A stretch of DNA of 64,000 nt from Octopus vulgaris (taxonomy: Eukaryota). The position numbers and the translations under genes are program-made. Below the pieces are notes generated by a model, which saw only the letters and a list, made by a program, of their open reading frames with translations, did not search any database and was not told where the DNA came from. The DNA lies in the NCBI GenBank assembly GCA_951406725.2, contig OX597815.1, positions 61,752,001-61,816,000 of the forward strand. The letters run 5' to 3'. Positions 11,691 through 13,501 of the stretch are shown here, piece after piece. The stretch's first letter is position 1. Every line of letters starts with the position of its first letter.

Positions 11691-12050
11691 CACACGCACA
11701 CACAAATACATACATACATACATACATACATACATACATACATACATACATACATGCATACATGCATACATACATAATACATACATACATACATATATAT
11801 ATATATATATATATATGTATATATATATATATATATATATATATATATATATATATATATATATATATATATATATATATATATATATATATATATATAT
11901 ATATATATATATATATATATATATATATCAACAATAAAGGAACGGCCATAATAGGCCATTCACCCACTAGAAATAACAGCCAAAGCTTCAACCGCAAATA
12001 AAAGTTAATTCAGTAAACCAGGAGAAAATTTAAAAAACATTTACCCTGTA

Positions 12051-12157
12051 ATTTCTTATACGATATACCGTTTCATCTGCTGATTAATGGTAAACTAACC
12101 TGATTAAATTAAATCAAGCCAATCTTCCACAGGCCCTCAGATTCTTCAGTAAGAAAT
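12051..12157 (-). ncRNA. Type I hammerhead ribozyme (monomer copy 1)
   Basis: Reverse complement of the motif at 12596-12702. Confidence 0.85.
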
Positions 12158-12595
12158 AGCCCAAGACGGAACAGATATTTTCACGAGGCATTTCCGACGT
12201 TGCCAAGTTAATATCTGACCTAAAATTTTCAAATCGTCGCACTCGCGCCAAATTTATCGGCAGCAAATAAATATAAGCCGTCGATTCCATTACGGAATTA
12301 ACCAGAAAATTCATAATTAATCAATATAGGGTGGCAAAAAAAATTTTGTAGAATTCTTTTGCCACCAGCGGCCTAGTAGGAAAAAATTAAAATAGTCATA
12401 GACCATTTTTAAGTTCAACATCAACAATAAAGGAACGGCCATAATAGGCCATTCACCCACTAGAAATAACAGCCAAAGCTTCAACCGCAAATAAAAGTTA
12501 ATTCAGTAAACCAGGACGATTTGAAAATTTTAGGTCAGATATTAACTTGGCAACGTCGGAAATGCCTCGTGAAAATATCTGTTCCGTCTTGGGCT

Positions 12596-12702
12596 ATTTC
12601 TTACTGAAGAATCTGAGGGCCTGTGGAAGATTGGCTTGATTTAATTTAATCAGATTAGTTTACCATTAATCAGCAGATGAAACGGTATATCGTATAAGAA
12701 AT
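12596..12702 (+). ncRNA. Type I hammerhead ribozyme (monomer copy 2)
   Basis: Stem I ATTTCTTA/TAAGAAAT; core CTGAAGA; stem II ATCTG/CAGAT closing a long insert; GAAA; stem III A-CGG(TATA)TCG-T; GUA cleavage after 12694. Confidence 0.88.
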
Positions 12703-13087
12703 TACAGGGTAAATGTTTTTTAAATTTTCTCCTGGTTTACTGAATTAACTTTTATTTGCGGTTGAAGCTTTGGCTGTTATTTCTAGTGGGTGAATGGCCT
12801 ATTATGGCCGTTCCTTTATTGTTGATGTTGAACTTAAAAATGGTCTATGACTATTTTAATTTTTTCCTACTAGGCCGCTGGTGGTAAAAGAATTCTACAA
12901 AATTTTTTTGCCACCCTATATTGATTAATTATGAATTTTCTGGTTAATTCCGTAATGGAATCGACGGCTTATATTTATTTGCTGCCGATAAATTTGGCGC
13001 GAGTGCGACGATTTGAAAATTTTAGGTCAGATATTAACTTGGCAACGTCGGAAATGCCTCGTGAAAATATCTGTTCCATCTTGGGCT

Positions 13088-13194
13088 ATTTCTTACTGAA
13101 GAGTCTGGGGGCCTGTGGAAGATTGGCTTGATTTAATTTAATCAGGTTAGTTTACCATTAATCAGCAGATGAAACGGTATATCGTATAAGAAAT
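13088..13194 (+). ncRNA. Type I hammerhead ribozyme (monomer copy 3)
   Basis: Same fold. Stem II is GTCTG/CAGAT, where an A-U to G-U change keeps pairing. Cleavage after 13186. Confidence 0.88.
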
Positions 13195-13501
13195 TACAGG
13201 GTAAATGTTTTTTAAATTTTCTCCTGGTTTACTGAATTAACTTTTATTTGCGGTTGAAGCTTTGGCTGTTATTTCTAGTGGGTGAATGGCCTATTATGGC
13301 CGTTCCTTTATTGTTGATGTTGAACTTAAAAATGGTCTATGACTATTTTAATTTTTTCCTACTAGGCCGCTGGTGGCAAAAGAATTCTACAAAATTTTTT
13401 TTGCCACCCTATATTGATTAATAAATATATATATATATATATATATATATATATATATATATATATATATATATATATATATATATATATATAATTATAC
13501 T

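What the first reader, a model, noticed from the sequence alone, without database searches (positions are those of the whole stretch)
11927..13422. Retrozyme-like array: 492-nt non-coding monomer with an intact hammerhead ribozyme per unit
Seen: a circularly permuted ~492-493 bp unit is repeated in tandem inside (TA)n. Each unit has a complete type I hammerhead: 8-bp stem I, CUGAAGA, stem II, GAAA, stem III and a GUA site. Two same-strand cleavage sites (after 12694 and 13186) are 492 nt apart. The copies differ by a few SNPs, one of which converts A-U to G-U in stem II. Known: retrozymes and Penelope-like pseudo-LTRs are tandem hammerhead-bearing units, and retrozyme transcripts self-cleave into monomers that circularise. 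Inference: this is a young, probably uncharacterised cephalopod retrozyme that makes a ~492-nt circular RNA and is mobilised by a Penelope-like RT.
Basis: partly seen in the sequence, partly recalled or inferred. Interest (0 to 1): 0.93.

Follow-up and report, generated by a model that had tools for sequence, protein, structure and literature searches.

The report
Two-armed hammerhead retrozyme insertion
This is one copy of a young, abundant jumping element whose 492-base self-cutting RNA seems to be copied into DNA twice at once, from two fixed start points into both strands of a TA repeat, which gives a testable clue to how Penelope-type retrotransposons insert.

Summary
The hammerheads, the 492-nt spacing and the (TA)n flanks are real, but the locus is not a simple tandem. 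It has two arms joined head to head: 1.2 units on the minus strand and 1.84 on the plus strand, overlapping by 2 nt. The family has at least 2,368 ribozyme half-cores in the genome. Of 60 insertions examined, 47 have one arm ending at a fixed site A (about 132 nt past the cleavage site) and the other at a fixed site B (about 235). None had A+A or B+B; 13 were one-armed, odd or unresolved. Arms run up to 9.4 units, and both arms of an insertion nearly always share one haplotype, including locus-private variants. Best reading: a non-coding, Penelope-mobilised non-LTR retrozyme whose circular monomer is reverse-transcribed round and round from two start sites, one per target strand. Intact Hydra-clade-like Penelope elements in the genome show the same two-end layout, but none examined shares sequence with this family. 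Cleavage, circles and the partner enzyme are inferred, not shown. The element class, inverted copy and one-sided tail are known; the strict pairing and shared haplotype were not found in print.

The parts
11706..11928 (.). Left microsatellite flank, (CATA)n then (TA)n; target of the insertion
11927..12516 (-). Left arm, 1.2 units, inverted. 3' end at 11927 is site A (monomer position 132); 5' end at monomer position 36
12051..12157 (-). Type I hammerhead of the left arm; predicted cleavage after 12059
12515..12516 (.). Head-to-head junction of the two arms, 2-nt overlap shared by both
12515..13422 (+). Right arm, 1.84 units. 5' end at monomer position 313; 3' end at 13422 is site B (monomer position 235)
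12596..12702 (+). Type I hammerhead 1: stem I 12596-12603/12695-12702, core 12604-12610, stem II base 12611-12615/12674-12678, GAAA 12679-12682, helix III 12683-12692; cleavage after 12694
12695..13186 (+). The one complete 492-nt monomer, cleavage site to cleavage site; predicted circular RNA, 35% GC, non-coding
12792..12826 (+). Site A inside the monomer: 8-bp hairpin followed by an unpaired U-rich stretch ending in AU; inferred reverse-transcription start 1
12880..12932 (+). Site B inside the monomer: 15-bp hairpin followed by an unpaired AU-rich stretch; inferred reverse-transcription start 2
13088..13194 (+). Type I hammerhead 2, with G-U at the base of stem II; cleavage after 13186
13421..13493 (.). 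Right (TA)n flank

Best explanation
A non-autonomous, non-coding Penelope-type retroelement (non-LTR retrozyme). Steps: (1) a multi-unit arm is transcribed (inferred; promoter unknown); (2) neighbouring hammerheads cut, probably as a double hammerhead through their self-complementary helix III, releasing a 492-nt monomer (inferred from structure and selection); (3) the monomer is ligated to a circle in which the ribozyme is mostly unfolded (inferred; ligase from the literature); (4) a Penelope-like RT-endonuclease, most likely a Hydra-clade protein acting as a pair, cuts both strands of a (TA)n tract and uses each 3' end to prime cDNA at one of two hairpin-marked sites, A and B, on the same RNA (two fixed ends, one per arm, shown in genomic copies; enzyme and simultaneity inferred); (5) each cDNA runs round the circle for 0.03 to 9.4 turns (multimer arms of one haplotype shown; circle inferred); (6) the two cDNA 3' ends join by microhomology and are filled in, giving a head-to-head insertion (junctions shown). 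Identity as a retrozyme-type element: about 0.9. Full twin-primed rolling-circle mechanism: about 0.6.
For: Ends: 32 of 39 best-matching loci and 15 of 21 insertions picked only by their B end are A+B; 0 of these 60 are A+A or B+B. Template: position 341 is never mixed within a locus (0 of 37; shuffles mean 30, minimum 23); 14 locus-private variants recur within a locus (shuffles mean 0.3, maximum 3), 7 of them in every piece that covers them and 3 of those 7 in both arms. In the older sample opposite arms differ by 0.58% against 5.2% between loci. In 9 of 47 A+B loci neither arm fits inside the other, so one is not a simple copy of the other. Unit joints are exact across the cleavage site in 182 of 187 cases, the other 5 being substitutions. 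Junctions show 1-6 nt overlap in 18 of 32, blunt in 3, fillers or extra pieces in 11. Ribozyme under selection: 96% of cells paired, 11 of 17 pairs with two-sided change, slid controls 35-44%; core N7 takes all four bases while the rest is invariant. Helix III does not fold alone but self-pairs at -10.2 kcal/mol. Intact Penelope-like ORFs with Hydra motifs exist and show one-of-each ends in (TA)n (L121, L124, L131, L132; L154). Weak hint: run X2 holds a single 523-letter contig, the length a closed 493-nt loop would give. In vitro, a Penelope protein cuts and extends both strands from two internal sites (PMC11167929).
Against: No cleavage, circle or enzyme was observed. No autonomous element with related sequence was found in 65 PLE-bearing loci (best: 64% over 137 nt, E 0.008). 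Six of the 14 private variants are in only some units (for example 3 of 9, 5 of 8), so some other copying process also acts. 8 of 47 junctions are nearly symmetric (2 expected), which fits fold-back in some cases. In the sister family 2 of 14 loci are B+B (L081, L087), so the rule is not absolute there. 13 of 60 insertions are not A+B. The two-sided changes come mostly from the split between two families, so they are few independent events. The monomeric fold does not form helix III, and pair 10.1-11.1 is A-U, not the usual G-C. In Anolis the uncleaved RNA was the main substrate in vitro, and 8 of 9 Xenopus dimers did not cleave. The first 39 loci were chosen for holding a full monomer, which inflates arm lengths.
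Confidence: 0.62

Rival explanations
1. Twin priming at sites A and B, but on an uncleaved linear multimer transcript from a source array. No circle is needed; the ribozyme only trims ends.
For: Unprocessed RNA was the dominant substrate for the Anolis protein in vitro (PMC11167929). Partly shared variants could be inherited from a mixed source array. It explains A+B pairing and shared haplotype equally well for one generation.
Against: A variant private to one locus and fixed in all units of both arms (3 cases) needs a one-monomer bottleneck at some generation. No arm among 39 loci runs back into a source junction or flank. The ribozyme core and stems are kept under divergence.
Confidence: 0.2
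2. The inverted arm arises by fold-back self-priming or by a switch onto the first cDNA, as proposed for rotifer Penelope elements.
For: 8 of 47 junctions are symmetric within 10 nt (2 expected, p 0.0008). 38 of 47 loci have one arm that fits inside the other. Proposed in PMC3846280 (passages).
Against: 39 of 47 junctions are asymmetric. In 9 of 47 neither arm fits inside the other; in L160, L163, L175 and L179 one arm holds sequence absent from the other. It does not explain why the second arm stops at the other fixed site, and either arm can be the longer.
Confidence: 0.08
3. Single units insert, and arrays grow and homogenise afterwards by unequal crossover or gene conversion (satellite model).
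For: Put forward for vertebrate retrozymes (bioRxiv 10.64898/2026.07.22.740005). Six variants are shared by only some units.
Against: Arrays of up to 9.4 units exist in loci 0.3% diverged internally; 76 singleton changes are not homogenised; every array keeps non-integer length with fixed outer ends and a unique central junction.
Confidence: 0.06
4. It is only the pseudo-LTR of an autonomous Penelope family, seen as 5'-truncated copies.
For: Autonomous elements here have hammerhead-bearing pseudo-LTRs with two ends in (TA)n.
Against: Units join head to tail with no ORF between them in arrays up to 9 units; no PLE ORF adjoins any of the 38 fetched loci; no homology to the pseudo-LTRs examined.
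Confidence: 0.04

Closest known systems
Animal non-LTR retrozymes (coral, mussel, axolotl; PMC7229834) and vertebrate families (bioRxiv 10.64898/2026.07.22.740005)
   Same: Non-coding, low-GC tandem units, each with a type I hammerhead; highly paired predicted circle; co-occurs with Penelope-like elements; multimeric cDNA from a circle was hypothesised there.
   Different: Unit of 492 nt (above the 150-450 nt of the 2020 paper, within the 51-972 of the 2026 one); long stem II; every well-formed insertion is two divergent arms with two fixed ends in (TA)n. The 2020 text has no occurrence of 'inverted' or 'microsatellite'; the 2026 text uses them only in other contexts.
Penelope-like element structure: inverted 5'-truncated copy and one-sided 30-40 bp tail (PMC8557442, PMC3846280); two internal RT starts in Anolis Poseidon (PMC11167929)
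   Same: Head-to-head inverted copy, partial tandems, two alternative 3' ends, AT-rich target, hammerhead upstream of the ends.
   Different: No ORF; tail of about 105 nt; both arms multimeric (20 of 32 have both arms over one unit); the tail is not optional but paired one per arm; both arms share one haplotype.
Hydra-clade Penelope-like elements (PMC8557442, section 11)
   Same: Canonical hammerheads and (TA)n targets; ORFs with RW[K/R], DKT, CxCX5C, CxxC and CxH motifs are intact in this genome and show the same two-end layout.
   Different: The element studied is non-autonomous and has no detectable sequence link to them; they are candidates for the partner only.
LINE-1 twin priming (recalled, from no call)
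   Same: Both target strands prime cDNA on one RNA; products join by microhomology, giving an inversion.
   Different: In LINE-1 the second start is at a variable internal site of a linear RNA and the arms do not overlap; here both starts are fixed and the arms overlap and exceed unit length.

Membership tests
Non-LTR retrozyme | Type I hammerhead in every repeat unit | tested here: met
   not detected by Rfam models
Non-LTR retrozyme | Short head-to-tail tandem units, dispersed in many loci | tested here: met
   Arms up to 9.4 units of 492-493 nt; 2,368 exact half-cores genome-wide
Non-LTR retrozyme | Non-coding, GC below 50%, no LTR-type termini | tested here: met
   Longest stop-free frame 68 aa, GC 35%; termini are internal positions of the unit. 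PBS and PPT were not searched.
Non-LTR retrozyme | Self-cleavage of the transcript | not testable with these tools
   Structure and covariation only
Non-LTR retrozyme | Accumulates as circular monomer RNA | tested here: inconclusive
   One 523-letter contig in run X2 fits a closed 493-nt loop, but the run type is a guess and a tandem gives the same loop
Non-LTR retrozyme | Co-exists with autonomous Penelope-like elements | tested here: met
Penelope-like element (autonomous) | ORF with RT and GIY-YIG endonuclease | tested here: not met
   No such ORF in the unit or adjoining the 38 fetched loci
Non-autonomous Penelope-like derivative | Inverted 5'-truncated copy and a tail at one end only | tested here: met
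   47 of 60 insertions; tail about 105 nt, longer than the 30-40 bp described
Non-autonomous Penelope-like derivative | Sequence relation to the pseudo-LTR of an autonomous family | tested here: inconclusive
   None in 65 PLE-bearing loci, a small sample of over 10,000 candidates
Non-autonomous Penelope-like derivative | Target-site duplication | not testable with these tools
   Both flanks are (TA)n, so a duplication cannot be read
Hydra clade (for the candidate partner ORFs) | C-terminal GIY-YIG, RWK, DKT, CxCX5C, CxxC and CxH motifs, canonical hammerhead, (TA)n target | tested here: met
   11 ORFs: DKT 11, CxCX5C 11, RW[K/R] 10, CxxC and CxH 10; definitions; no tree was built
Plant LTR retrozyme | Type III hammerhead in long terminal repeats with 4-bp duplication | tested here: not met
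   Type I topology, no terminal repeats

The most novel reading that the evidence does not exclude
Penelope-type integration is a twin-primed rolling-circle reaction: a pair of RT-endonuclease proteins holds one ribozyme-made circular RNA at two dedicated hairpin sites, each primes from one strand of the cut (TA)n target, both copy round the same circle, and the cDNAs are joined end to end. This one mechanism would account for the inverted copy, the one-sided tail and the partial tandems of Penelope-like elements, and would be genomic evidence that animal retrozyme arrays are written at insertion from a single circle.
Probability: 0.5. Interest if true: 0.87.

Novelty: new variant of a known kind. 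Interest (0 to 1): 0.68.

Why it matters
How Penelope-like elements form their tandem and inverted structures, and whether a circular RNA is the template, are stated as open in the papers read (PMC8557442, PMC11167929, PMC7229834). This family is young, short, present in over a thousand insertions and sits beside intact candidate enzymes. It gives a 492-nt substrate with two mapped start sites and a defined target, so the question can be tested in vitro, and the genomic copies already discriminate between published models. If ordinary, it remains a new invertebrate retrozyme family.

Tried and rejected
Rfam scan at E<=1: 16 matches, none a hammerhead, all below gathering score. Sequencing runs: no RNA holder listed; all four runs laid are contigs, so ends, strand and level could not be read. 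Complex prediction of two copies of the first 490 residues of a candidate partner ORF: no answer, score 0.00. Pfam found no family for three PLE proteins and the PDB none for one; their assignment rests on motifs. Search for an autonomous parent: no homology in L095-L159 beyond a 17-nt hit and a 64%, E 0.008 hit. The exact A-end pattern gave 188 matches against 607 forward matches for the B end; this looked like a break of the A+B rule, but the sampled loci showed that older subfamilies have a changed A-end sequence. The reverse count is inflated by overlapping matches and was not used. The negative correlation of arm lengths (rho -0.36, p 0.046) was set aside because loci were chosen for a full monomer. 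The excess of 5' ends near the cleavage site (7 of 64, p 0.04) is post hoc and was not used. No Pol III A or B box by simple patterns. A blocking helix over GAAA appears in the window monomer's circular fold but not in the other seven monomers, so it is not claimed as general. Earlier findings of the scan: three look-ups returned nothing.

Full report
Observation. The three hammerheads are present as described: stem I of 8 bp, CUGAAGA, a 5-bp base of stem II carrying a 58-nt extension, GAAA, a short helix III and a GUA site. Plus-strand cleavage falls after 12694 and 13186; a third ribozyme lies on the minus strand (after 12059). The element sits between (TA)n tracts. It is not a plain tandem. 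11927-12516 is an inverted arm of 1.2 units, 12515-13422 a direct arm of 1.84 units, and the two meet at their 5' ends with a 2-nt overlap. Rfam reported no hammerhead model among 16 matches at E<=1; I infer that the long stem II defeats the models.

Family. The monomer search gave 690 candidates, of which 39 were scored, with 262 matches; the 150 listed are 95-100% identical. An exact pattern over the 3' half of the ribozyme has 2,368 matches and the reversed control none. A B-end pattern has 607 forward matches, which suggests about 1,200 insertions. The unit is non-coding (longest stop-free frame 68 aa) and 35% GC. It folds better than shuffles as a line (z -5.0) and as a circle (z -5.3, 40 shuffles). 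A sister family has a 467-nt unit, 66% identity over the whole unit and 2,532 candidates.

The ribozyme is under selection. In 20 copies from both families the core is invariant except N7, which takes all four bases, and the cleavage base (A or C). On the hammerhead structure 96% of cells pair and 11 of 17 pairs change on both sides; slid controls pair 35-44%. Most two-sided changes separate the two families, so they are few independent events; within the family the outer stem II pair switches G-C to A-U and the helix III loop switches UAUA to UGCA, staying self-complementary. Helix III does not fold alone but pairs with a second copy at -10.2 kcal/mol, as described for animal type I ribozymes that work as dimers (PMC4209133, passages). 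Stem II is predicted at 0.94-0.97 until 55 nt past the site and at 0.2 or less from 75 nt on; stem I is at 0.08 or less in 5 of 8 circular monomers, 0.29-0.55 in the other three. Cleavage itself is not shown.

Two fixed ends, one per arm. Among the window and the 38 other scored loci, 32 have a minus arm and a plus arm facing away from each other, one ending at monomer position 132-134 (site A) and the other at 228-242 (site B), each running into (TA)n. In two of these the B arm is only 17-18 nt. The seven others: two have one arm at A or B and bare (TA)n on the other side (L060, L067), three have a second arm ending elsewhere (L042, L051, L053), one has a second arm from another ribozyme family (L043), one abuts other sequence (L048). 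Because these loci were chosen for a full monomer, I took a second sample by B end alone: 21 of the 45 places listed on contig C1, in 20 regions; the sample stopped there. It gave 15 A+B (the A ends of L165 and L175 read by eye), 4 B-only, 2 unresolved. Over both samples 47 of 60 are A+B and none is A+A or B+B; independent 50:50 choice would give that with p 7e-15. In the sister family the same two sites are used, but 2 of 14 loci are B+B. Each site is an unpaired U-rich stretch just after a hairpin, and the scatter at B follows alternative AU registers, as expected if the cut TA end pairs with the RNA (inference). Central junctions differ at every locus: 1-6 nt overlap in 18 of 32, blunt in 3, fillers or extra pieces in 11.

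One template. Arms are 0.03 to 9.4 units long and both exceed one unit in 20 of 32. In 254 unit pieces, substitutions outside homopolymers are 0.29% within an arm, 0.31% between opposite arms and 0.59% between loci. Position 341 splits the family in two yet is mixed in 0 of 37 loci (shuffles mean 30, minimum 23). Fourteen variants are private to one locus and recur in it (shuffles mean 0.3, maximum 3): seven are in every covering piece, three of these in both arms (5 of 5, 6 of 6, 3 of 3), one is in 6 of 7, and six are in only some units. In the older sample opposite arms differ by 0.58% and loci by 5.2%. Joints across the cleavage site are exact in 182 of 187, with no indel. In 9 of 47 loci neither arm fits inside the other (one borderline), so both were copied from RNA there. 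Against a pure reading: the six partial variants, and 8 of 47 nearly symmetric junctions where 2 are expected.

RNA. Four runs were laid, all as contigs and all only guessed to be RNA. Run X2 holds one contig of 523 letters, laid from 12515 to 13031 with a net one-letter gain. That equals 493 + 30, the length of a closed loop in a 31-letter graph (word size recalled; the overlap itself was not visible). A genomic tandem could give the same, so this is a weak hint.

Partner. An endonuclease fragment beside a copy of another ribozyme family led to Penelope-like ORFs. An RT search scored 150 of 10,339 candidates and found many open frames of 900-1,091 aa. Eleven ORFs carry RT then a C-terminal GIY-YIG domain with DKT and CxCX5C (11 of 11), RW[K/R] and CxxC plus CxH (10 of 11 each), the marks of the Hydra clade (PMC8557442, section 11). 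Nine of the 20 loci have a canonical type I hammerhead in the pseudo-LTR. One-of-each ends in (TA)n are seen in L121, L124, L131 and L132 among 13 loci compared (the rest are truncated, interrupted or unrelated) and in L154, with tails of about 84-115 nt. None shares sequence with this family, so the partner is inferred from shared target and layout.

Mechanism. The transcript is cut to monomers and ligated; a paired Penelope protein cuts both strands of (TA)n, primes one cDNA at A and one at B on the same circle, each runs round, and the 3' ends are joined. Shown: the ribozyme fold and its conservation, the two ends, the pairing, the single haplotype, the junctions. Inferred: transcription, cleavage, circle, enzyme, dimer, simultaneity. 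The main rival keeps twin priming but uses an uncleaved linear multimer.

Known work. Non-LTR retrozymes, their circles and the hypothesis of multimeric cDNA from a circle are in PMC7229834 (parts 2-4 of 6 read; term search) and PMC4209133 (passages). Their origin from Penelope pseudo-LTRs is in bioRxiv 10.64898/2026.07.22.740005 (parts 1-3 of 5 read; supplements closed), which favours local amplification. The inverted copy and one-sided 30-40 bp tail are in PMC8557442 (passages and sections 6 and 11; its supplementary family lists were not seen and may hold related mollusc families) and PMC3846280 (passages), which explains inversions by self-priming. PMC11167929 (parts 1-2 of 4) shows cutting and extension of both strands from two internal sites, predicts a dimer, and saw no strand difference in start site; it did not test pairing per target. 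An octopus repeat annotation (PMC13282606, passages and supplement search) has no occurrence of 'ribozyme'; whether the host is an octopus was not established here. Eight paper searches (listings and abstracts) found no report of strict one-of-each ends or of arm-shared haplotypes; subscription papers, Repbase and Dfam were not searchable.

Verdict. A real, young and abundant retrozyme-type element; a new variant of a known kind. Its value lies in the insertion layout, which discriminates between models of Penelope-type integration and supplies a short substrate to test them. Interest 0.68.

Noticed in passing
window 47290-47610 (-): A second, unrelated hammerhead element between TA tracts (cleavage after 47513). 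3,797 candidates, about 90% identity; copies again show two ends about 60 nt apart on opposite arms and a unit spacing near 478 nt.
   Followed up: partly
window 16620-16900 (-): A third hammerhead with a long stem II and self-complementary helix III (cleavage after 16679), in a 280-bp piece between TA tracts; looks like a lone pseudo-LTR fragment.
   Followed up: partly
L048:1519-1994; L081-L094: Sister family with a 467-nt unit, GUC site and homologous A and B ends; 2 of 14 loci end B+B.
   Followed up: partly
L043:2800-4610: Chimeric insertion: a B-ended arm of this family stops at the cleavage site and the opposite arm belongs to another hammerhead family. Suggests that the two arms can sometimes come from different RNAs.
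   Followed up: partly
L120:986-5958: Pseudo-LTR arms of one Penelope family joined at about 2500 to the 5'-truncated body of another family, inside one pair of TA tracts; possible template switch between families.
   Followed up: partly
L140-L155: Many intact Hydra-type Penelope ORFs of 950-1,091 aa in units of 4.6 kb or more, longer than the under-3-kb elements described for that clade.
   Followed up: partly
L141:343-3197 and 6148-8980: The inverted arm of an autonomous element includes about 0.9 kb of sequence from beyond the opposite TA tract, as if flank were carried along.
   Followed up: no
L032:4812-4842 and L050:4190-4222: Two independent loci have almost the same extra piece (monomer 56/58-88) at the central junction; unexplained.
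   Followed up: no
39-locus set: 5' ends of arms cluster at monomer 205-246 (15 of 64), at the site B hairpin, as if the enzyme stalls there.
   Followed up: no
window 41716-44667 (-): Three open frames of 204-293 aa with helicase-like motifs, resembling a Helitron (resemblance recalled, not tested).
   Followed up: no
window 11307-11429: A long near-perfect hairpin, MITE-like; weak Rfam microRNA match far below gathering score.
   Followed up: no
window 40427-40716: Two tandem copies of a 147-bp unit, 86% alike.
   Followed up: no
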